A stretch of DNA of 50,970 nucleotides, taken from positions 1 through 50,970 of the IMG/VR virus record IMGVR_UViG_3300032212_000014; one strand, written 5' to 3'. Source of the DNA: a virus. Lineage: Duplodnaviria; Caudoviricetes. A program made the translations under genes and the position numbers. Under the pieces are notes generated by a model. The model saw only the letters and a list, made by a program, of their open reading frames with translations, did not search any database and was not told where the DNA came from. Positions 8,035-19,363 of this stretch are shown here, one piece after another. Position 1 is the first letter of the stretch. Every line of letters begins with the position of its first letter.

Positions 8035-8035
8035 A

Positions 8036-8107
8036 TGGGACGGGCAGGACTCGAACCTACGCATACGGGCACATCGTCCCGCACTCTGCCAACTGAGTTA
8101 CCGTCCC
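8036..8107 (-). tRNA. tRNA-like gene with non-canonical anticodon loop (isotype undetermined)
   Basis: Perfect acceptor GGGACGG/CCGTCCC, D-arm ACTC/GAGT and T-arm GTAGG TTCGAGT CCTGC; anticodon arm GCGGG-ACGATGTG-CCCGT. Confidence 0.75.
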
Positions 8108-8215
8108 AAACGACTCTGCGTCCTGCCAACTAGACGAATGGCCTGCCGCTCGCCGATCAAAGCGATTGGCACCTAGGAAAGCCATACAGGACTCGAACCT
8201 GTGTTTCAGAGTTAA
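8108..8215 (-). ncRNA. circularly permuted tRNA-like gene (3' half 8215-8178, 33-nt linker, 5' half 8144-8108)
   Basis: TTAA CTCTG AAAC ACAGG TTCGAGT CCTGT ATGGCTT T - linker - AGGCCAT TC GTCT AGTTGGC AGGAC G CAGAG TCGTTT; the halves pair in both the acceptor and anticodon stems. Confidence 0.8.
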
Positions 8216-9319: not shown

Positions 9320-9685
9320 AAACTCAGAGGGAGGGTTGTGGAAAAGATGAAAAAATTTGAGATAGGAGATAGGGGAGGTTTATCAGTATTGTAAGGCCGG
9401 GGGTCCGGGGTCGGGGCCGGGCCTCTGATCGGGCGGGCGGGCGAGCTCGAGCCGATGTTAGCGAGTACTTACTAACCCCGTAAACCGCGTTTTTACGCTG
9501 CAAACCGTGTAGGGCGTACCATGGCAGGGGGTGTATGACACGAAGGGCACCCATCGTGCCACGATATCGGCGAGCCGTGGAATAGGGGTAAGGCGAGCAC
9601 GATTGAGGGGTCTAAAGCTGCCTTCTATCTCTCTCTTGCCCCCCTGAATCCCTGTTCTTCCATCTCGTGTATCCTACCATCGGCT

Positions 9686-9988
9686 ATGAGTATCCGCCTG
9701 AATCTACGCTTGCCGCCTTCGACGGTATCCCGCGCCCGCATTATCCGTGCAGTATCTAAGCGGCTTGGGGATCGTATCGAATGGGGCGATATGATGGAGC
9801 GGGGTATCGGCCCTATTGAGGATCAGCTCAAGAGCGATTGTAAGCGTATGGGCGTGAACTATGACCGCTTGTTGCTTGAGTGTCTCAAGAGCATGAACAA
9901 TGGAGCGAACGAGAACACCCCTACTACCCGTGCCTATGAGTATGCACCTAGGCCCGGCGCTGGCTTTGTTGATTCGGGCTTATCCTGA
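9686..9988 (+). CDS. hypothetical protein (possible DNA-binding protein)
   Basis: 100-aa ORF, first rightward gene; alternating N-terminal pattern IRLNLRL reminiscent of ribbon-helix-helix. Confidence 0.5.
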   Translation: MSIRLNLRLPPSTVSRARIIRAVSKRLGDRIEWGDMMERGIGPIEDQLKSDCKRMGVNYDRLLLECLKSMNNGANENTPTTRAYEYAPRPGAGFVDSGLS

Positions 9989-10093
9989 CTATGGGTGTTT
10001 TGTTCATTCGGGCTGTTGAGCATCTACGCTTCTGATTGTCTATGAATATCTTCGCTTTGGGTGTTTATTGTGGGTATCGCTGCAATTTGTCGC

Positions 10094-10108
10094 CGTCATA
10101 TTGTGACA
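10094..10108. promoter_or_regulatory. palindromic operator-like site YGTCAH-WWT-GTGACA, copy 1 of 4
   Basis: CGTCAT ATT GTGACA; others at 21745, 38841 and 42805, all intergenic. Confidence 0.6.
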
Positions 10109-10175
10109 CTCCACCCCCCTGGCGAGCTTGAATCGGGGTTATCCTAAAAATATCGCTTTTGTTTTGCCTTGTCAG

Positions 10176-10204
10176 TTGACACGGGGGGGAGTGTTGACGA
10201 TACT
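10176..10204 (+). promoter_or_regulatory. sigma70-type early promoter
   Basis: TTGACA-17 nt-GATACT upstream of the ArdC-like gene. Confidence 0.75.
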
Positions 10205-10266
10205 ACACCCATGCAAGCCGTCGGACGCTTGCAACAATCAAATCGCCTTTTGCAAAGGGGCAAACC

Positions 10267-11214
10267 ATGAAATATACACGACGATCCAGCAAGCGAGCCT
10301 CGGGCGCTAAGCGCCGGGCGAATAATGCCGCGGCTTTGCGCCGGGCTCGAGAAGGAATGAGCCCCGAGAATGACGCTCGAGTAATCTCGGGCATGATAGC
10401 CGCCGGCTATGATCCATCCGAGATCGACCCGCGCACCAACTGCTTTACTTATCCCGCTTGGCAAGCGCTCGGCCGACAAGTGCTCAAGGGCGAAACAGGC
10501 GTAAAGATCCCCGTAGGCAAACGGCTTGCCTCTATCTTTCATATCTCCCAAACTAGCGCGATTGGCGACTCCCCAAAGCCGGCGAGCATTCGCGAATGGA
10601 GCACCGCGGGCGTGAATCGCAAAATGCAAGCCGTCGCCGAAAACTCGGGATTCGATCCGGGGGATTTAATCTACAATACTGAGGCAACCGGCGGACCCGT
10701 ATCCTTTTCGTTCCCCGGCGCTATCCCCGCTGATCTTAAAGAATCCCTAGAGGGCTTGCCCTTCGATGTTCGCGCAATGTTTCGCCCGGATATGCCCGGA
10801 TCAACCGGCGCTGATACGCTCGCTGAACATGGCGCCGATGGTATGATTGATCTCGCTAAGAATCTAATCCGATCCGGGGCAACTGGTATAGCCGATCATA
10901 TCGAGCGAGTAGGCAACGAAACAGACCCACAAACGCAACTGCTCCAAGTGTTGCAAGCCCTACGCGCCGGCGTTCCGTTTGTGAGCCGCCCGGCGCTAGA
11001 AGTTGTGCAAGCCGATACGCTCAAAGATGGATCGGGTTTCGAGCTTGTGGGCGTTCCCTTCGCAGTCTATACCGCCGACGGTTGCCGGCGTGCATCATCG
11101 GGCGAGCATGATTTCAATCTCGACGGCTTGGACTCAATCCCCGCCGACAAGGGCACGGTTGATATAGACGCCCGCATAGCGCCCGAGTTGGCAACCGCCG
11201 ATATTCCATTCTAA
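10267..11214 (+). CDS. ArdC-like N-terminal ssDNA-binding domain protein
   Basis: CFTYPAWQALGRQVLKGETGVKI...IFHISQT matches the ArdC-N (DUF1738) pattern; ends in DIPF. Confidence 0.75.
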   Translation: MKYTRRSSKRASGAKRRANNAAALRRAREGMSPENDARVISGMIAAGYDPSEIDPRTNCFTYPAWQALGRQVLKGETGVKIPVGKRLASIFHISQTSAIGDSPKPASIREWSTAGVNRKMQAVAENSGFDPGDLIYNTEATGGPVSFSFPGAIPADLKESLEGLPFDVRAMFRPDMPGSTGADTLAEHGADGMIDLAKNLIRSGATGIADHIERVGNETDPQTQLLQVLQALRAGVPFVSRPALEVVQADTLKDGSGFELVGVPFAVYTADGCRRASSGEHDFNLDGLDSIPADKGTVDIDARIAPELATADIPF

Positions 11215-11223
11215 TCCAATCCC

Positions 11224-11304
11224 CGCCGGGTCCGCTGAAAAGCGGGCGCGTCGATTTGAGAGCCGGTGTCGGATCGGCTCTTATTCATGATCTTAAAGCA
11301 AAGG
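11224..11304 (+). repeat. structured intergenic leader, copy B (GAAA hairpin + GTCGGA hairpin + GCAAAGG RBS)
   Basis: GTCCGCT GAAA AGCGGGC; TGAGAGCCG GTGTCGGAT CGGCTCTTA. Confidence 0.8.
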
Positions 11305-11311
11305 GAAAAGC

Positions 11312-11752
11312 ATGAAACCCAACGAACTAGCGGCGCTATTAAACATGATACTCAACGAATCAGACGACGATACCATTATTGACCTCATCGTCAACAACGC
11401 GGAAGAACTTGAGGAGCTTGCCATAGCTCTTGCTGCTGTCCCCAAGATCGGCGACGGTAAACCGGACGCGCCAACCCATACGCCGGGGCCGTGGCATATC
11501 GGTGATACGAATAAAAACCATCCCGCTATCGTCTATGCCTCTGACGGGTGGGTGATTGCAAACACTTCGGGCGTGATATGCCGAACAGACGACGAGGAAA
11601 GCGCAAACGCTCGCCTGATTGCCGCGGCTCCTGGAATGCTCGAAGCTCTCGAAACCGTTGCAGCCTGCAAGCCTGATCACTCGGGCGGCGTGACCCTCGG
11701 GCATGTTGAGCTGTCAATGATTGCCGATACGCTTCTCAATGCTCGATCTTGA
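11312..11752 (+). CDS. conserved phage hypothetical protein
   Basis: HTPGPW...ANARLIAAAPGMLEAL motif common in phage early genes. Confidence 0.8.
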   Translation: MKPNELAALLNMILNESDDDTIIDLIVNNAEELEELAIALAAVPKIGDGKPDAPTHTPGPWHIGDTNKNHPAIVYASDGWVIANTSGVICRTDDEESANARLIAAAPGMLEALETVAACKPDHSGGVTLGHVELSMIADTLLNARS

Positions 11753-11757
11753 CACGC

Positions 11758-11839
11758 TCGCCGGCCCCGTGGAAACGCGGGGCGGTGGTTTTGGGCACGG
11801 TGTCGGATCGTGCCCGGTTTCCAGATTTCAATGCAAAGG
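11758..11839 (+). repeat. structured intergenic leader, copy C
   Basis: GCCCCGTG GAAA CGCGGGGC; GGGCACG GTGTCGGAT CGTGCCC; GCAAAGG. Confidence 0.85.
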
Positions 11840-11847
11840 ATTTTACA

Positions 11848-12324
11848 ATGTCTGTTTCAATACTCGAGCCGCGCGATATTCAATATCTCTGTGAGATGGC
11901 AGCGATAAAACCAGATTTTAGTTGGTGCCGCGTTGCCGATGGCCATGCGATCGACCGGATTATGCGCCGAGACCTTGCCGGTGCTCTGATTGTGCAGCTC
12001 AGCGCCCTCGGGCAGATTCTTGTCGATGATAACTATGCAAGCTATAACGCCCGATACGACGACAACCTAAAGCCGTTCCGATATGTTCACCACTCCCAAG
12101 CCGTAGACCATAAGCCCGGCGAAGTGTTCGCCGCGTGCAACTACTACGAATACCAAGCGAGCGAGCACCCCGAGGGTATGAACTGTGAAGGGCTCCAGGT
12201 GATCGGCGCGATAAGGGCTCAATCCATGCGGCATGTTATCGCGTCACAATCAAAGAACCCAACAGGGACGCCGGACCACTTCGGAAACTCAACCGCGGTC
12301 TGCCTCTCTCGCCTGATTGGATAA
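11848..12324 (+). CDS. conserved hypothetical protein
   Basis: Start MSVSILE after GCAAAGG; LVDDNYASYNARY...CNYYEYQASEHP. Confidence 0.7.
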   Translation: MSVSILEPRDIQYLCEMAAIKPDFSWCRVADGHAIDRIMRRDLAGALIVQLSALGQILVDDNYASYNARYDDNLKPFRYVHHSQAVDHKPGEVFAACNYYEYQASEHPEGMNCEGLQVIGAIRAQSMRHVIASQSKNPTGTPDHFGNSTAVCLSRLIG

Positions 12325-12332
12325 AAAACTTT

Positions 12333-12414
12333 TCGCCGGCCCCGTGGAAACGCGGGGCGCGGCGATTCGTTGCACGGTGTCGGATCGTGCAACTTTCCGA
12401 ACCCCCAGCAAAGG
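12333..12414 (+). repeat. structured intergenic leader, copy D
   Basis: 27-bp and 19-bp exact matches to copy C; GTTGCACG GTGTCGGAT CGTGCAAC. Confidence 0.85.
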
Positions 12415-12425
12415 GATAGTAAACA

Positions 12426-13694
12426 ATGACACATGAAAACGAAGCGACTTATTGCCCGGAAGATAACAAAATCCGCCTGTACTGCGGACGCGTACCGCGT
12501 GAGGAATACCTAGAGCTCCGGGCGCTCGGGTTCAAATCGACGCCGAAACAGGATTGTGATTTTGTCGCAACTTGGGGCATCGCCCGAGAAGATCGGGCGC
12601 TCTCCATGCTTGCCGAGGGCGACACTATCGGCGACGAGGACCAAAGCCCCGCGGATCGTGCAGCCGATCGCGCTGAACGATTCGCCATGTATCGAGACAA
12701 GCGGCGAATCGAAGCCGGCGGACACGCGGACGCATTCGACGCTGGGCCAAGCTCGCACGGCTACCAATCACAAGACAGAGCCAACCGCGCAGCCGCCAAG
12801 CATGACCGCCATCGCGGGCGAGCCCTGAGCCAATGGGACAAGGCCGAGTATTGGCAACAAAGAACCGCCGGCGTGATTGAACACGCGATATACCAGACGA
12901 GTGCATCGGTTCGCCGTGGGCGGATTGTTCGCCTGGAGTCGGATCTGAGAACGCACACGGGCGACTGCTACACCCGGTACCGTGCTCATCTTGAAAACCG
13001 CCTAGCCTATGAGCGTCAGATGTTGGCGAGTCAGGGCGGATCAGCTGCCGATGTCGATATTATCCCCGGCGGATACTTTGGGCGTCATCAAGTGATCAAG
13101 GTGAATCGCTCGCCGGTGACTAAGCAGCCCGTATCGGTGAAAGTCTGGGGAGCGCACGACTGGAAGCGCGACGCCAACGGGGAGCCCTTGCAATGCCTGA
13201 AATCTGTGAATATCCAGCGGCTCGGAGAGGATGCTTATACACCACCAACCGAGGCCGATCTTGTGAAGCTCGCCGAGTTCAACGCGGCGCTCAAAGAAAA
13301 GACTAAAGAGAAGAACGCGGGCAAGCCCAAGCTCATCAACCCAACCGACGCCGACGCGCAACGGTTGCAAGATACTTTAAACGCAGCCGCTAGAGGGGGA
13401 TCTTCTGAGATCCTAAAAATGACTCAAGCCCAGTATTCTGCACGCTCGAAGGGTTCGTATTCAAGTTATGGCGCCGAGTTCTTGCACGCCGACGGTTCAA
13501 CTGATTCAAGTCCGCGGGCGGGCCGATGGATCGACGGGCAGATGGTCCAGCATACCAACATCTGCAAAGTGCGAATCGGTCCGAATATTGGCAGCAGTTC
13601 ATTCTATTCTGCTGACTCCGTGATCATCATCACCGACAAGCCACAAAAGCCGCTCCCGGCTTGGTCAACCGTTGCCGAGGGGGTGGCATCATGA
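12426..13694 (+). CDS. DUF3560-like protein
   Basis: RAADRAERF...WDKAEYWQQRTAG...VRRGRIVRLESDLR pattern; adjacent to an MTase, as is typical for this family. Confidence 0.7.
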   Translation: MTHENEATYCPEDNKIRLYCGRVPREEYLELRALGFKSTPKQDCDFVATWGIAREDRALSMLAEGDTIGDEDQSPADRAADRAERFAMYRDKRRIEAGGHADAFDAGPSSHGYQSQDRANRAAAKHDRHRGRALSQWDKAEYWQQRTAGVIEHAIYQTSASVRRGRIVRLESDLRTHTGDCYTRYRAHLENRLAYERQMLASQGGSAADVDIIPGGYFGRHQVIKVNRSPVTKQPVSVKVWGAHDWKRDANGEPLQCLKSVNIQRLGEDAYTPPTEADLVKLAEFNAALKEKTKEKNAGKPKLINPTDADAQRLQDTLNAAARGGSSEILKMTQAQYSARSKGSYSSYGAEFLHADGSTDSSPRAGRWIDGQMVQHTNICKVRIGPNIGSSSFYSADSVIIITDKPQKPLPAWSTVAEGVAS

Positions 13695-14320
13695 ATCGCG
13701 GCCTATTACGATTGCTCCATCTACGCGAACAAACCGAAGCCGTAGACGCGGACATGATCGGCGAGCGGGCACGCTTTAAGCGGCTACGCAAGGCCGAAGC
13801 GCCCCGCGCGGTGTCGGCGTTCAATCTGTTTCAAACCCCGCCGGAGCTCGCTGATTGTATGGTTGCGAATCTCCCAACCCTGGGCGACGGTTCGCGGGTG
13901 CTTGAACCTTCCGCCGGGCTCGGTCGATTGTTTCACGCGATCCGTCGAAAAGCGCCCGGCGCTCTGGTCACGCTTGTTGAATCCTCGCCCGATTGCTGCG
14001 CCGAGTTGTACCGTGCGATAGATGGCGACGAATCCGCGCACCTTGCCCAGCGTGATTTCTTGAACTTCTCGGATCTCGACGGGTTCGATTTCATCGTGAT
14101 GAATCCGCCATTCAAGCGGGGGGCGGATGTGAAGCATATCAAGCACGCACGCGGATTGCTCAAGCCTGGCGGGGTGCTTGTGGCGTTGTGCTATGACGGT
14201 AGCGCCCAGAATAAGCACCTCAAACCAATCGCGGACACTTGGACGCCGCTGGGCTCTGATCTATTCAAGACTGAGGGCACGCGGGCGGCCGTGGTGATGA
14301 TGACGCTCTCTACGCGATGA
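13691..14320 (+). CDS. N6-adenine DNA methyltransferase (gamma-type, small)
   Basis: FQTPPELA, VLEPSAGLG, DFL and VMNPPF motifs; ATGA overlap. Confidence 0.9.
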   Translation: MNRGLLRLLHLREQTEAVDADMIGERARFKRLRKAEAPRAVSAFNLFQTPPELADCMVANLPTLGDGSRVLEPSAGLGRLFHAIRRKAPGALVTLVESSPDCCAELYRAIDGDESAHLAQRDFLNFSDLDGFDFIVMNPPFKRGADVKHIKHARGLLKPGGVLVALCYDGSAQNKHLKPIADTWTPLGSDLFKTEGTRAAVVMMTLSTR

Positions 14321-14328
14321 TCCCAAAG

Positions 14329-14455
14329 CCCCGAGATCGTGGAAACGCGATCCGCGGGGATTCGATCAGCTACGGACGGTTGATCAAAAAGTAGGTGAGG
14401 GCGATACGCTCGAAAGCGGTCGGACACGCCCCCACCCTAGCACCCATTGCAAAGG
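14329..14455 (+). repeat. structured intergenic leader, copy E (divergent, three hairpins)
   Basis: GATCGTG GAAA CGCGATC; GATCAGCT ACGGAC GGTTGATC; GGGCG...GTCGGACA CGCCC; GCAAAGG. Confidence 0.75.
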
Positions 14456-14466
14456 GGATAAATCCC

Positions 14467-14754
14467 ATGAGTACCGAACCAATCATAGACGCAATCACTC
14501 AGAGAATCATGGACGACGCGGGGGCATATGAACCAACCCCCCAAGAAGTCCGCTGGGCTTTGATCGAGCACCAATCAAGGAAGCTCGCTGACGCTTTGAC
14601 CCGTCATCAGTTCGTAGGCGTGACCGGCGACGCGCTCATCGCGTTGCGCGATCTTCGCGAAGCTATGGACGGGGCGACCGAGAAGCCCGAGCCAATCGAG
14701 CCGGATAACCCGCTGGCAATCATCGGCAACCGTGGATACACAACGACCTATTGA
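14467..14754 (+). CDS. hypothetical protein
   Basis: Start MSTEPII after GCAAAGGGG RBS. Confidence 0.65.
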   Translation: MSTEPIIDAITQRIMDDAGAYEPTPQEVRWALIEHQSRKLADALTRHQFVGVTGDALIALRDLREAMDGATEKPEPIEPDNPLAIIGNRGYTTTY

Positions 14755-14763
14755 GCGAAACCA

Positions 14764-14815
14764 CCCGGCGGGAGTGAAAGCGCCCGCCGGGCCTTGTATG
14801 ATCTTAAAGCAAAGG
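14764..14815 (+). repeat. structured intergenic leader, copy F
   Basis: CCCGGCGGG...GAAA...CCCGCCGGG followed by ATGATCTTAAAGCAAAGG, identical to 11287-11304. Confidence 0.75.
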
Positions 14816-14823
14816 AGAATAAA

Positions 14824-15210
14824 ATGGGAATGTTTGATACTGTGGCAGTTGAATGCCCTCAATGCGCCGAGTTCGTCGGCGTTCAAAGCAAAGCGATGGG
14901 CCACAGACTCACCAACCTGAATCTGTACAACATTGAGAACGCACCAGACGATATCAAGGCTGACATTGCAGACTGCCAATGCGAGTGCCGAAAGTGCGGG
15001 CAAAAATTCACTGTCCGGGCAGAGATTACTTTAACAGTCATGGCTTGCCACGATTTTCCGCCGGACACTGATTCGTGGATCGTCTGGAGCGAGCCACACC
15101 CATTATGCAAAGATGGCGGGTCGGAATACCCGGATTGGTATCTGGATCATATCCAACAACAGATCGAATCCAAACCTAGTGATCCCCTTATGCCAGGGGG
15201 CGAGCGATGA
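14824..15210 (+). CDS. zinc-ribbon hypothetical protein (MGMFD type)
   Basis: MGMFDTVAVECPQC...QSK...CRKCG. Confidence 0.75.
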   Translation: MGMFDTVAVECPQCAEFVGVQSKAMGHRLTNLNLYNIENAPDDIKADIADCQCECRKCGQKFTVRAEITLTVMACHDFPPDTDSWIVWSEPHPLCKDGGSEYPDWYLDHIQQQIESKPSDPLMPGGER

Positions 15211-15923
15211 GCAAGAAGCAAATCAAGTGTGTTATCTATGCCCGTTTCAGTCCGCGCCCAGCTAAGGCGCTCAAAGACTGTCAATCTATCGCCGTGCAGA
15301 TTGAATCCTGCAAAGCGTTCGCAGAGAAGCAAGGGTATCGCGTGATGAATACCTATGTGGATCAAGAGAAGTCTCGAAACGACTTCGATCGTCCGGGTCT
15401 CCATGAGGGCATCAAATCACTCTATCGCGGCTGGATCTTTCTCGCCTATAGCCCTGATCGAATCGGATCAGGACGGCACGCCGCGGTGATCGAGAACGAT
15501 ATCATCAGCAAGGGTGCCAGGATCGAGTACGCCACCGGCGATATGAACGGACAATCCGACGAGACCACGCTCATGCGGGGGTTCTTTTCGCTGCTCGCTG
15601 AGTATGAACGAGCAAAGATTGGCCGGCGAACCAGTGACGGAATGCAGTTCAGGCAGGCCAACGGGGAGCGAATGACAAGCATCGGAACCTTGCCCTACGG
15701 GAAGATGGTTGACCCTGAGAATGATCGCCGGATGATCGACAATCCAGACGAAATCAGGGTTATTCGAGCGATTAAACGATGGAATAAGCAGGGCGTGACC
15801 GTCGCGGGCATGATCTCAAAGCTCCACGAAAACCAGTGGAAACCGAGAGGCAAGGAATGGCACCGGACCACGATCAATCGGATTTTGGCACGCTCAAAGG
15901 GTGACAAGCCCAAGGATAGTTGA
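15207..15923 (+). CDS. serine recombinase (resolvase catalytic domain plus short recombinase domain)
   Basis: VIYARFS, DRPGL, PDRIG, LAEYERAKIGRRT and LPYG motifs. Confidence 0.9.
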   Translation: MSKKQIKCVIYARFSPRPAKALKDCQSIAVQIESCKAFAEKQGYRVMNTYVDQEKSRNDFDRPGLHEGIKSLYRGWIFLAYSPDRIGSGRHAAVIENDIISKGARIEYATGDMNGQSDETTLMRGFFSLLAEYERAKIGRRTSDGMQFRQANGERMTSIGTLPYGKMVDPENDRRMIDNPDEIRVIRAIKRWNKQGVTVAGMISKLHENQWKPRGKEWHRTTINRILARSKGDKPKDS

Positions 15924-16425: not shown

Positions 16426-19008
16426 ATGGGTGGCCATCCGTTCATCGCAAAGGCTCCCGATGGGGCGACTTATTACGGCAACAATCTTGCCCTGCTTTGC
16501 CGTGAACACAAGCTCAACAAAGACTTGATGAACAAAGTCAGGCAAGGCATTGTCGCAGACCATCGCAAGTGGACTGTTCGTGAAGCCACCGACTTTGAAA
16601 TCGCAAACCTCGGTGATCCTCGCGGTAATCCAAAGGTTGATGTTCCTAGAGATGAAACCGACGCGATTTCCATGGTCATGGATATGTATGCGCCCGGCTC
16701 TGAGCACACCGCTCCATCCGATCCGCGTGAACTTGTCAAGCTGCTCGCCAACGCCCAGGCACAAATGGCCTTTGGTGTTCATGTCTTGGGCAAGGAACCG
16801 CCGACTGGCTGGAACCCTGCACAAATCAACGCCACGATCACGCACCTTTGCACCACCCATGGTATCGACCGCAAGCACGCCGAGGACTATCGCACCGCCG
16901 AAGAGAGGGTCATGGACGCCATGACCGAGCTCATCGGTAACAGCGCTTCTATCTGGGAAGCCGAAGATGAAATCCTCGCCACACTTGAGCAGGAAATGAT
17001 CGGTGTTCGCGACGGCGGCGAAGAATATCTACGCATCCTTGAAAAGTTCCCCGCAAAGTCGCTGCTCCCCGAGAGCCAGTTGCCCGCCGGCCAAGACCCG
17101 GAGGCACCCCCCGGCCCAAAAACAATAGCGGCGGTCGCGTCTAAATGGATTGATCGCATCCGCCGCGTCCGTCACCTTGCACACCGAGCACAGACCGATT
17201 CGATCCCAGGCATGAGCCGGCGCGAGAAGATGATCAGCCAAGCGACCCACACGCTTCGTTATCAGCTCTATGTCAACCGATCAGGAATCATGATCCGTCA
17301 CAAGGGGATGAAGAAGAAGAACAATGTATTTACCATCGGCCCCCCGCATATCCGTATGTCGATGGGCTTGTTCTTCTCTCGCAACCGATACGGAATCACT
17401 GACCAGGGCATTCTTGCCCCCGGTGAAAGTTATATCGTCGATGGCAAAGAGACTCCATTCCCCGGCGCTGATTACACGGGCACCATCTGGATGATCCCCC
17501 CTCGCCACGGCAAAACCGATGAGCTCAAAGCCGTGGTCGGATTAGAGATCGGTCTCAATCCGCGAGTCCAGATTGGCTATGTCCACGATGTCGATGAGGA
17601 AGCGAAGAAGTTTAAGAACTCCGTGGAGCGCATGTTCCACCGAGACAACGATCAAGGCCGAAGAAACTACAGGCTCTTTCCCTACGAGCTCGATGCAAAG
17701 CAGAACGATGCCAATATGCTGCGCGTCAAATGCAAAGATCCTCCAAAGACCCCGAACCTTGTGGTCGGTGGCGTCTTTGGATCTGCGCAGGGTTTGGATC
17801 TTGACCTGCTTATCGGCGATGACCTTGTTCCCCAGCGAGACAACCATCAGCCAGGCACAAGAAAAAAACGGCTCACCGCTTGGGCTGGCACTTGGGTCAC
17901 TCGATTACAAGGCGAGAACCCTCATATCATTCTCTCGGGCTATCCCCGCCACTTTCAGGATCTCATGTGGACCAAGTACAAAGAGGCTTTGGAAGCTGCC
18001 AAGTCTCAGTTCCGCCGCGGTGATCCGATGTGGGTTCTTCGCATGCCTGTCGGCGATACAAAGTCATCACCGAAGTTCAAAGCAATCTGGGATTACTACG
18101 GACCCGCCGCGCTTCGCCGTCGGTATCGCCAGTTAAGTTCGCGAGCAACCTGGGCCGCCAACTACGGACTCCATCCGATCACCGACGATATGAAGCTCGT
18201 CAAGAATGTTCGGATACTTGACAAGAACGATCCAAAGGTGATCGAAATGCTCAAGGCCAGCGAGAACCATCTCAACATCGACCCGGCGGCCAAGGGTGAC
18301 GGGCTCAATGATATGGCCGGGCTTGTCGTGCTCTCTGTTGGGAGTCTCGAATGGGTTGACACAAACGAGTTCGGCAAAGTACAGAACAGCGAAACACTCG
18401 CGGTTGTTCGCATGGCGCGTGAGTTCCACGCCACCCAGACCGAGATCACCCAGGAAATGATGGAAGTCTCTCAGTCGTTACCGATTCACCAGGCGAATGT
18501 CGAATGCGTGACCGGCCTAGGCTCGGCCATCATCGAGATCCTTGAAAACTACCACGGCGTCTATGGGGTGAACCCGATCGGCACCGGGAACCTCAACAAG
18601 AAAGCGCGATTCAAAGCCGTCGCCGGTATGCTCGAACATCAGCCGGGGATTGTTCCCGCAAAGGTCGCGTTCCTTGGCGAAAAAGAGCGTGACGAAAACG
18701 GGAACATTATCGAGGACTCACCGTTGCAGGTGATCGAATCGCAACGCCGGCTCTTGGAGTATGTCGTCAACTACGCGGTTGAGGAAGGCTTCCACTCCCT
18801 CGATGCCCTCACCCAAGGCTGCCGCCAGCTCATGCCGGTCATCGGTGTTGGCGAAGGCGAGTTCAGTGCTCAAGTTGAGCAGGATATGTACGAGGGCAAG
18901 GACAAGAACAAGTGCAACATCATCAAGAAAATCAAGATCGATACCAAAAGAAAACAATCGCATAGTGCCGGGCGGCGTCGCTTTGGCATGTCCACTTTAC
19001 AGGTTTGA
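16426..19008 (+). CDS. terL: terminase large subunit with long N-terminal extension
   Basis: MIPPRHGKT (Walker A), DLLIGDD (Walker B), NIDPA...ND and LDALTQ nuclease motifs. Confidence 0.9.
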   Translation: MGGHPFIAKAPDGATYYGNNLALLCREHKLNKDLMNKVRQGIVADHRKWTVREATDFEIANLGDPRGNPKVDVPRDETDAISMVMDMYAPGSEHTAPSDPRELVKLLANAQAQMAFGVHVLGKEPPTGWNPAQINATITHLCTTHGIDRKHAEDYRTAEERVMDAMTELIGNSASIWEAEDEILATLEQEMIGVRDGGEEYLRILEKFPAKSLLPESQLPAGQDPEAPPGPKTIAAVASKWIDRIRRVRHLAHRAQTDSIPGMSRREKMISQATHTLRYQLYVNRSGIMIRHKGMKKKNNVFTIGPPHIRMSMGLFFSRNRYGITDQGILAPGESYIVDGKETPFPGADYTGTIWMIPPRHGKTDELKAVVGLEIGLNPRVQIGYVHDVDEEAKKFKNSVERMFHRDNDQGRRNYRLFPYELDAKQNDANMLRVKCKDPPKTPNLVVGGVFGSAQGLDLDLLIGDDLVPQRDNHQPGTRKKRLTAWAGTWVTRLQGENPHIILSGYPRHFQDLMWTKYKEALEAAKSQFRRGDPMWVLRMPVGDTKSSPKFKAIWDYYGPAALRRRYRQLSSRATWAANYGLHPITDDMKLVKNVRILDKNDPKVIEMLKASENHLNIDPAAKGDGLNDMAGLVVLSVGSLEWVDTNEFGKVQNSETLAVVRMAREFHATQTEITQEMMEVSQSLPIHQANVECVTGLGSAIIEILENYHGVYGVNPIGTGNLNKKARFKAVAGMLEHQPGIVPAKVAFLGEKERDENGNIIEDSPLQVIESQRRLLEYVVNYAVEEGFHSLDALTQGCRQLMPVIGVGEGEFSAQVEQDMYEGKDKNKCNIIKKIKIDTKRKQSHSAGRRRFGMSTLQV

Positions 19009-19024
19009 AAAGGAGATCCAAACC

Positions 19025-19363
19025 ATGAAATCAATAGAACAAATCCAAGAACTCAAGGGCCTATTCAAGCCACGAAACAACCATGTTGTTTTGGTGCTCG
19101 ACGAGGCAATGGTCAAGACCGAGGCGGGCTTGCATATTCCAGAGGTCGGCGTCGCCCAATCAGTCACCGGGCAGGTTGTCGAGGCCGCGATCAAAGACAA
19201 AGAAGATCCTGATGTTGAGCTCAGACCCGGCGACCGTGTGTACTTCAACGCGTTCGCTGCACAAAAGCTGACCATCGGCGATGCCAAGATCATTGTTGTT
19301 CAAAGCGAAAACATCATGGGGACTATCAACTCCGCTGAGATCGTCAAGGAGGACAACTCATGA
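19025..19363 (+). CDS. groES: co-chaperonin GroES
   Basis: FKPRNNHVVL...KTEAGLHIP...GQVVE...LRPGDRVYF...ENIMG; AGGAG RBS. Confidence 0.9.
   Translation: MKSIEQIQELKGLFKPRNNHVVLVLDEAMVKTEAGLHIPEVGVAQSVTGQVVEAAIKDKEDPDVELRPGDRVYFNAFAAQKLTIGDAKIIVVQSENIMGTINSAEIVKEDNS

What the first reader, a model, noticed from the sequence alone, without database searches (positions are those of the whole stretch)
10212..14815. Covarying two-hairpin leader repeated in front of each early gene cassette
Seen: six intergenic leaders (10212, 11224, 11758, 12333, 14329, 14764) are built from a GAAA-capped stem and/or a stem with a (T/A)CGGA loop, then a GCAAAGG RBS. Stems change with compensation (CCCCGTG/CGCGGGG vs GATCGTG/CGCGATC; GGGCACG/CGTGCCC vs TTGCACG/CGTGCAA vs GAGCCG/CGGCTC vs TGCAAGC/GCTTGCA) while the loops persist. 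The first copy starts at the predicted +1 of the early promoter. Known: CsrA/RsmA binds GGA in hairpin loops, and GNRA hairpins act in boxB-type antitermination. Inference: an undescribed cis-regulatory RNA (or ssDNA hairpin) module that co-regulates early genes and may also provide homology for cassette shuffling.
Basis: partly seen in the sequence, partly recalled or inferred. Interest (0 to 1): 0.78.

Follow-up and report, generated by a model that had tools for sequence, protein, structure and literature searches.

The report
Two-hairpin spacers between phage early genes
An uncultured phage, likely of Planctomycetota bacteria, and a related prophage separate their early genes with a repeated spacer predicted to fold as RNA (a hairpin just after each stop codon, a short AU-rich gap, and a second hairpin about 45 bases before the next start), which likely protects the ends of each gene's message and likely marks where genes are swapped.

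Summary
All six leaders are at the stated places; in four aligned copies 10 of 21 pairs change on both sides (0 of 500 shuffles); no Rfam family matches. The window is a circular temperate phage; a syntenic prophage in a Phycisphaerales genome has six leaders of the same plan around partly different genes. That relative undercuts both named mechanisms: its second loop reads GUCGC(A/G), not GGA (against CsrA), and 4 of 5 first loops carry CAAC, not GNRA (against boxB). The first hairpin starts 5-15 nt after the upstream stop and resembles host terminator hairpins with a shortened U tail; a near-identical hairpin lies inside host rplJ-rplL operons. The second hairpin is phage-specific: its loop core lies 39-48 nt before the start codon in 11 of 12 cases, and the first copy starts at the predicted +1 in both phages. 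Best reading (0.45): a cassette spacer giving each message a 3' and a 5' hairpin, with a conserved loop for an unknown ligand, doubling as a recombination joint. No RNA data were available. It is a new variant of a known kind (PeSL, ESAS, cip-cel processing); this scan noted similar arrays in other phages.

The parts
9686..9988 (+). 100-aa ORF upstream of the early promoter; possible ribbon-helix-helix regulator (lead only)
   Evidence: No Pfam/PHROG hit; weak Atlas leads to RHH clusters; a homologous stretch lies at the same place in the prophage
10176..10204 (+). Predicted sigma-70-type early promoter TTGACA-17-GATACT; +1 predicted near 10211
   Evidence: the prophage has TTGCAT-16-TATGCT at the same place
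10212..10266 (+). Leader A: P2 hairpin (10212-10233, loop CGUCGGAC) at the predicted +1, RBS GCAAAGG at 10252
10267..11214 (+). 315-aa ORF with a weak ArdC-N-like N-terminal part
   Evidence: PF08401 E 0.008, under cut-off; prophage orthologue 30% identical hits anti-restriction phrog_7245
11224..11311 (+). Leader B: P1 11224-11253 (GAAA loop), gap AUUU, P2 11258-11282 (GUCGGA), RBS at 11298
11312..11752 (+). 146-aa ORF, phrog_1273 (unknown function)
11759..11847 (+). Leader C: P1 11759-11787, gap GUUUU, P2 11793-11815, RBS at 11833
11848..12324 (+). 158-aa ORF, no family; no match in the prophage
12333..12425 (+). Leader D: P1 12333-12364, gap AUUC, P2 12370-12392, RBS at 12408; shares 27 identical bases with leader C
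12426..14320 (+). DUF3560 ORF (12426-13694) with overlapping methyltransferase ORF (13691-14320), one cassette
   Evidence: 61% and 57% identical to the prophage pair
14329..14466 (+). Leader E: P1 14329-14359, gap AUUC, degenerate P2 14364-14385 (UACGGA), third element 14394-14436 carrying GUCGGA at 14419, RBS at 14449
14467..14754 (+). 95-aa ORF, no family; no match in the prophage
14764..14823 (+). Leader F: P1 14764-14791 only, RBS at 14809; shares 18 identical bases with leader B
14824..15923 (+). 128-aa ORF, then small serine recombinase (15207-15923) closing the array; the recombinase also closes the prophage's array

Best explanation
The early block is an array of gene cassettes behind one predicted promoter, and each junction carries a terminator-like hairpin right after the stop codon, a short AU-rich gap and a second hairpin about 45 bases before the next start, which together likely give each gene's message a protected 3' end and a protected 5' leader. 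Shown: the two hairpins, their covariation, their positions, and the same plan in a related prophage. Inferred steps: (1) P1 has only 2-4 U in its next 8 bases, so it likely stops few polymerases and mainly blocks 3' exonucleases. (2) The (G)AUU(U/C) gap is likely where the long transcript is cut (host RNase E is the candidate) or where the leaky stop falls. (3) P2 then likely serves as the 5'-terminal hairpin, as the first copy does at +1, and shows its GUCG(G/C)A loop just upstream of the ribosome's landing region to an unidentified ligand that is not CsrA. (4) The 12-27 identical bases between leaders likely let the phage's Erf/RecE-type proteins swap cassettes.
For: P1 starts 6-9 nt after the stop in 5 of 5 window junctions and 5-15 nt in 5 of 5 prophage junctions. 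The first leader lacks P1 and begins within about 1 nt of the predicted +1 in both phages. The loop core lies 39-48 nt before ATG in 11 of 12 cases; the exception is E's degenerate loop, and E has a second, intact core at 48. The last intact core of each array sits after an inserted hairpin inside an outer stem (in the window's MFE part of it is paired), so the motif survives a change of scaffold. An AUU or UUU follows P1 in 11 of 12 junctions of three genomes. The phage's late-region terminators have real U runs (39537, 40092). A window-only covariance model finds GAAA-capped host hairpins: 12 of 19 loci examined lie 5-38 nt after the stop of a frame of at least 567 nt; 4 are in the rplJ-rplL spacer, which from general knowledge is read through. 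The + strand folds better than the - strand in 13 of 14 leaders; 23 G-U pairs against 2 A-C mismatches in 24 hairpins. The host-like genome G001 encodes an RNase E/G of 960 aa. [quoted passage not shown] Gene content differs at leader boundaries; Erf-like and RecE-like genes are in both phages.
Against: No transcript ends were seen; every functional step rests on position and comparison. A plain 5' stabiliser needs no conserved loop, so the loop is not explained by end protection alone. The gap is only 3-6 nt, short for RNase E by my recall, and a cut there could leave unpaired 5' bases. F has no AUU gap and no P2. Only two independent genomes carry the full module (L230 equals L142). Covariation among paralogues can arise by template switching, and the G-U count is biased because hairpins were chosen by folding the + strand. 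The two phrog_1273 proteins are not significantly alike by BLASTP (E 2.0), so 'moved cassette' may be independent gain.
Confidence: 0.45

Rival explanations
1. P1 hairpins are true terminators, and P2 is a nascent-RNA antitermination signal (put- or nut-like) placed at +1 and again after each terminator.
For: P1 resembles host terminators. P2 is at the predicted +1 in both phages. Its loop changes in concert within each genome (GUCGGA against GUCGCA), as cognate signals of a phage factor might. HK022 put is a double hairpin of about 65 nt (PMC8632103, passages).
Against: P1 tails hold 2-4 U in 8 bases. P2 is tied to the start codon (39-48 nt), not to the promoter. A processive signal would not need repeating at every gene. 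By inspection no boxA is shared by the leaders. No N-like protein was identified.
Confidence: 0.2
2. The transcript stays whole and P2 is a binding site for a translational regulator (phage or host, not CsrA) that switches all cassettes together; P1 only insulates.
For: Fixed distance of the loop core to ATG in 11 of 12 cases; loop core GUCG invariant in 9 of 9 aligned copies while stems differ; motif absent as a hairpin from 25 of 25 host matches examined.
Against: The hairpin ends upstream of the Shine-Dalgarno and no pairing with it is shared among copies. No candidate RNA-binding protein was found. Other DUF3560 loci have RBS-proximal hairpins with other or variable loops.
Confidence: 0.2
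3. CsrA/RsmA binds the GGA loops and co-represses the early genes.
For: Six window loops contain GGA; E's loop ACGGAC fits ANGGAX; G001 encodes 2 CsrA-family proteins.
Against: Five of 6 window loops have U where the consensus needs A (A(N)GGAX, PMC4005645, passages). All 6 orthologous prophage loops lack GGA. No CsrA gene was found in the window.
Confidence: 0.05
4. The hairpins act as single-stranded DNA (ssDNA promoter or attC-like site for the adjacent serine recombinase), or are by-products of repeated recombination with little function.
For: Cargo resembles plasmid leading-region genes (ArdC-N-like, DUF3560, methylase). A serine recombinase closes the array in both phages. Leaders share 12-27 identical bases.
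Against: The genome encodes a terminase, so it is likely injected double-stranded. No DxDGD polymerase motif was printed by the six-frame scan. Positions track stop and start codons. Arms around the gap are not conserved, unlike recombinase sites. I did not fold the leaders with DNA parameters.
Confidence: 0.1

Closest known systems
PeSL cassettes of T4-type phages (PMC2839356, abstract and section 13; PMC4122927, abstract)
   Same: Repeated intergenic module from upstream stop codon to Shine-Dalgarno, with a stem-loop, in front of variable early genes; proposed or shown joint for modular shuffling.
   Different: Every PeSL holds its own sigma-70 promoter and its stem-loop is a strong terminator. 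Here the best promoter is at the head of the array, only F has a 9-of-12 consensus hit, U tails are short, and there is a second, start-linked hairpin with a conserved loop.
SAS/ESAS of cluster K mycobacteriophages (PMC3203893, passages)
   Same: Phage-specific repeat tied to start codons, with an extended RBS-like word and upstream inverted repeats; function unknown.
   Different: ESAS arms are conserved 17-bp repeats with a variable spacer. Here the arms covary freely and the loop is the conserved part.
Selective RNA processing and stabilisation in the cip-cel operon (PMC10311766, abstract and Discussion)
   Same: Intergenic stem-loop pairs, a larger one at the 3' end and a smaller one at the 5' end, with cleavage between or beside them. 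This is what the module most likely works like.
   Different: A chromosomal operon in a Gram-positive host with RNase Y proposed; its stem-loops are not a repeat family and ends were mapped there, not here.
Establishment gene regulatory sequences EGeRS1/EGeRS2 of pLS20-family plasmids (PMC8708921, abstract and Results part 1; PMC6294495, abstract)
   Same: Repeated upstream elements mark an ardC-containing set of variable establishment genes; EGeRS2 is controlled by a ribbon-helix-helix repressor, and an RHH-like ORF may sit upstream here.
   Different: EGeRS1 is 420-750 bp and EGeRS2 is a promoter with operators; both are on conjugative plasmids. The module here is about 60 nt within one operon.
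HK022 put and lambda nut/boxB (PMC8632103, passages)
   Same: Hairpin signals near the start of early phage transcripts; put is a double hairpin of similar length.
   Different: No Rfam match; loops differ; repeated before every gene; GNRA not kept in the relative.
RNase III sites between T7 early genes (recalled, not read)
   Same: One early transcript divided at structured intergenic sites.
   Different: By recall those are single long stems; P1 is 11-14 pairs, at the lower limit for RNase III.

Membership tests
Any Rfam family | Score at or above the gathering cut-off | tested here: not met
   Window: only 3 tRNAs; 10100-15000 best E 7 and 8; L142 and L232: only a tRNA
CsrA/RsmE site | A(N)GGAX in a hairpin loop | tested here: not met
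   1 of 6 window loops fits (E, ACGGAC); 0 of 6 prophage loops contain GGA (consensus)
CsrA/RsmE site | CsrA present in the host | tested here: met
   2 matches over cut-off in G001, the relative's host; the window's own host is not known
CsrA/RsmE site | Binding in vitro | not testable with these tools
   needs EMSA
nut/boxB | GNRA-fold loop kept among relatives | tested here: not met
   GAAA in 5 of 5 window and 2 of 2 L232 copies, but CAAC in 4 of 5 prophage copies
nut/boxB | boxA and a cognate N protein | tested here: inconclusive
   No shared boxA by inspection; no search for N was possible beyond Pfam/PHROG scans, which found none
PeSL | Sigma-70 promoter in each module | tested here: not met
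   Consensus hits only at 10176 and 14774 among six leaders; 8 hits against 5.1 by chance
PeSL | Gene content changes at module boundaries | tested here: met
   Window against prophage; DUF3560's upstream neighbour differs in window, L142 and L232
PeSL | Excised mini-circles | tested here: inconclusive
   Only assembled contigs of one run were available
SAS/ESAS | Conserved inverted-repeat arms with variable spacer | tested here: not met
   Arms vary with compensation, loop conserved
Intrinsic terminator (P1) | G+C-rich hairpin shortly after a stop | tested here: met
Intrinsic terminator (P1) | U tract of 5 or more in the next 8 bases | tested here: not met
   2-4 U in 12 of 12 junctions; the looser scan flags only C's upper stem
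Processing and stabilisation site (cip-cel type) | Mapped cleavage and stabilised ends | not testable with these tools
   needs RNA-end data

The most novel reading that the evidence does not exclude
The GUCG(G/C)A loop is a phage-specific address: one RNA-binding factor or the host polymerase reads it at +1 and before every cassette, so any captured gene comes under one RNA-level switch (read-through or translation), and the loop changes in concert in each phage lineage like a lock recut for its key. It would be the first such RNA control element for phages of Planctomycetota that my searches could find.
Probability: 0.25. Interest if true: 0.72.

Novelty: new variant of a known kind. Interest (0 to 1): 0.5.

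Why it matters
Early anti-defence blocks of phages change genes quickly, and how a new gene gets expression signals is only partly known. This module shows one solution: a host-type terminator hairpin with its U tail shortened, joined to a phage-specific start-linked hairpin. Two phages with different loops give a ready swap experiment for finding the ligand. The array also marks seven uncharacterised small genes across the two phages as candidate anti-defence genes against Planctomycetota. The general plan is not rare, which caps the surprise.

Tried and rejected
Pattern scans of viral contigs: the two-hairpin pattern found 0; the 15-base P2 pattern found 61 loci, by inspection none with both hairpins, many in an apparent terminase coding stretch. 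Terminase and large-virion-protein scans of viral contigs found no relative. BLASTN against 50,697 phages: no match. The ArdC-like protein is a singleton among 8000 scored candidates. Terminase homologues in 2 of 401 genomes of the host order; the second is a 7-kb contig. No RNA holder listed; contigs of the one DNA run show no joints, which is no evidence either way. Antisense partner: loop complements show no shared intergenic site in the two phages; longest complement 12 nt. tRNA anticodon matching the loop: phage tRNAs are Met, Glu and one unassigned; the prophage region has Ala and Arg(TCT); rejected. ECF promoter reading: GAAA-to-core spacing of about 30 nt is too long by recalled consensus. 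P2 in hosts: the 13-base core occurs in 80 of 201 genomes, but 0 of 25 loci examined extend the stem by more than 2 pairs. Model R1 and count one search had P2 off by one column; superseded, and (100 loci) used the faulty model. Model R2 was built and not used. On alignment A10 two registers score alike because loops are 7-9 nt. Inversion of the block at the flanking palindromes was considered; in the prophage the sites do not flank the block.
Full report
Context. The window is a whole circular virus record: 127 identical bases at both ends, one contig. It encodes a terminase, a tyrosine integrase, Erf-like and RecE-like proteins, a helicase, SSB and three tRNAs. The finding lies in a plus-strand block from 10267 to 15923, between a predicted promoter (10176-10204) and the terminase region. 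The block holds a weak ArdC-N-like ORF, a phrog_1273 ORF, a 158-aa ORF, DUF3560 with a methyltransferase, a 95-aa ORF, a 128-aa ORF and a small serine recombinase. 'Early' is inferred from this cargo and the promoter.

Observation. All six leaders are there. I call the stop-proximal hairpin P1 and the start-proximal one P2. A has P2 only, F has P1 only, B-E have both, and E has a third element. B-F fold far better than shuffles (z -3.4 to -5.7); A and E's third element are weaker (-2.2, -2.0). With the structure correctly registered, 92.8% of cells pair in the B-E alignment and 10 of 21 pairs change on both sides; none of 500 shuffles reaches this (one search was mis-registered). No Rfam family matches. 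GCAAAGG precedes 6 of 6 leader-borne starts and 2 of 46 others; its AAAGG core pairs with the 16S 3' end CCUCCUUUCU read in 5 of 5 host-order genomes, so it is an ordinary Shine-Dalgarno with a shared prefix.

A relative. DUF3560 searches returned 10 viral loci, then 80 viral (including those), 80 genomic and 80 metagenomic loci. The best, L142 (61% identical), is in a record titled uncultured Phycisphaerales bacterium. It belongs to a prophage that matches the window's terminase, structural and replication genes in order. L230 is the same DNA. This makes a Phycisphaerales host likely but does not show it. L142 has a promoter-like site and six leaders of the same plan. Its first leader again has P2 only, starting at the predicted +1. 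Its P2 loops read GUCGCA (5) or GUCGCG (1); its P1 loops carry CAAC (4) or GAGA (1). A third locus, L232, has two leaders with a GAAA-capped P1 and the same GAUU(U/C) gap but a different second hairpin. The window-only model R3 finds F (E 1e-4), one L232 leader (E 1e-3) and one L142 leader (E 4e-3) unaided, with one coding false hit at E 0.02 and three further true leaders at E 0.1-7. A descriptor written from these two genomes, so circular for them, finds the full module at 4 places in the window, 3 in L142, and none in 400 kb of host DNA, 79 metagenomic loci or 32 viral loci.

What each part is. P1 begins 5-15 nt after the stop in 10 of 10 junctions and has 2-4 U in its next 8 bases in 12 of 12, whereas the phage's late terminators have U runs. 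Model R3 gave 20 matches in 18 of 150 host-order genomes (this tally includes one unpublished genome whose locus I left out). Of the 19 examined, 12 lie shortly after a long reading frame, and none of the 10 best alignments shows a P2 loop on an intact stem. B's 14-base P1 core occurs 14 times in 13 of 201 genomes; 5 of these extend the stem by 7 or more pairs, and 4 of those 5 run into 5 or more U; the reversed control is about as frequent, so the count itself means little. Four matches are in the rplJ-rplL spacer of probably close relatives. P1 is therefore a host-type 3' hairpin, also used inside an operon. P2 is phage-specific. Its core GUCG is invariant in 9 of 9 aligned copies and lies 39-48 nt before ATG in 11 of 12 cases (one uses an in-frame upstream ATG of the prophage recombinase that has the leader's RBS). 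Where E's loop has decayed, a second intact core stands at 48. The + strand folds better than the - strand in 13 of 14 leaders.

Mechanism. The repeat unit is best read as P2-RBS-gene-P1, arrayed behind one promoter. I commit at 0.45 to end protection: P1 likely guards the 3' end and lets most transcription pass, the gap is likely cut, and P2 likely caps the next message and presents a loop to an unknown ligand. RNase E is present in the relative's host; its liking for AU-rich single strands is recalled. The cip-cel operon is the working precedent. Antitermination (0.2) and a translational switch (0.2) explain the conserved loop better but explain the short U tails or the P1 position less well. 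CsrA (0.05) fails on the relative's loops and on the A(N)GGAX consensus.

Shuffling. The two arrays share the ArdC-like gene, the DUF3560-methylase pair, the recombinase and a phrog_1273 member, the last before DUF3560 in the window and after it in the prophage. Three window genes and four prophage genes are unshared. The gene before DUF3560 differs in all three loci. Leaders share up to 27 identical bases in the window and 20 in the prophage. Recombination between leaders is inferred, not seen; the two phrog_1273 proteins may be separate gains.

Novelty. Ten literature searches of an open-access library found no paper on this module; most subscription papers are not covered. They found the kind: PeSL, SAS/ESAS, EGeRS and cip-cel processing. 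Other DUF3560 phages carry their own unrelated repeated leaders (about 5 of 9 loci examined), and this scan's notes list similar arrays in other phages (unchecked). No note matched this sequence. Papers seen: PMC2839356 abstract and section 13; PMC4122927 and PMC6294495 abstracts; PMC8708921 abstract and first third of Results; PMC10311766 abstract and most of the Discussion; passages of PMC3203893, PMC4005645, PMC8632103, PMC7509114 and PMC5512222; no supplements. Verdict: a real, uncatalogued module, a new variant of a known kind, interest 0.5.

Noticed in passing
window 9306, 15972, 21820, 38910; G001:C1 367550, 373657, 383739, 390229, 418503: A 9+2+9 palindrome (consensus AAGTTAGTG-NN-CACTAACTT) occurs 4 times in the window and 5 times in the prophage, at largely matching intergenic places before late genes and near the RHH-like ORF, and 0 times in 400 kb of host DNA. 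Likely an operator or late-activator site; its shape also recalls serine-recombinase sites.
   Followed up: partly
window 9686-15923 against G001:C1 411200-417961: The block from the RHH-like ORF to the serine recombinase points towards the terminase in the window but has the opposite orientation relative to the terminase and replication genes in the prophage.
   Followed up: partly
L356, L357, L365, L366 (about 1480-1690 on the matched strand): A conserved structured rplJ-rplL spacer of about 180 nt in four Phycisphaerales genomes: P1-like hairpin plus several further hairpins, no Rfam match.
   Followed up: partly
L001 137-12950: A 120-kb phage contig has more than 15 leaders with CCGTA(U/C), GAAAUUC and an RBS-proximal GCCCG..CGGGC hairpin; L232's second hairpin has the same stem.
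   Followed up: no
L003, L007, L009, L010, L271: Each carries its own repeated intergenic element around DUF3560; L271 has a P1-like hairpin with an AUUC tail twice.
   Followed up: no
L142 8997-9764: A tRNA-His guanylyltransferase-like gene sits in the prophage's early array.
   Followed up: no
window 8035-8108: ARAGORN cannot assign this tRNA (anticodon loop read as gatg), between tRNA-Met and tRNA-Glu.
   Followed up: no
window 18761-19363: A GroES-like gene overlaps the end of the terminase gene; 16426-19008 also has a weak N-terminal HNH-family match.
   Followed up: no
window 9390-9460: A G-rich intergenic stretch with a hairpin whose loop reads GTCGGG; the prophage has a similar G-rich stretch at the same place. 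Possibly a genome end.
   Followed up: no
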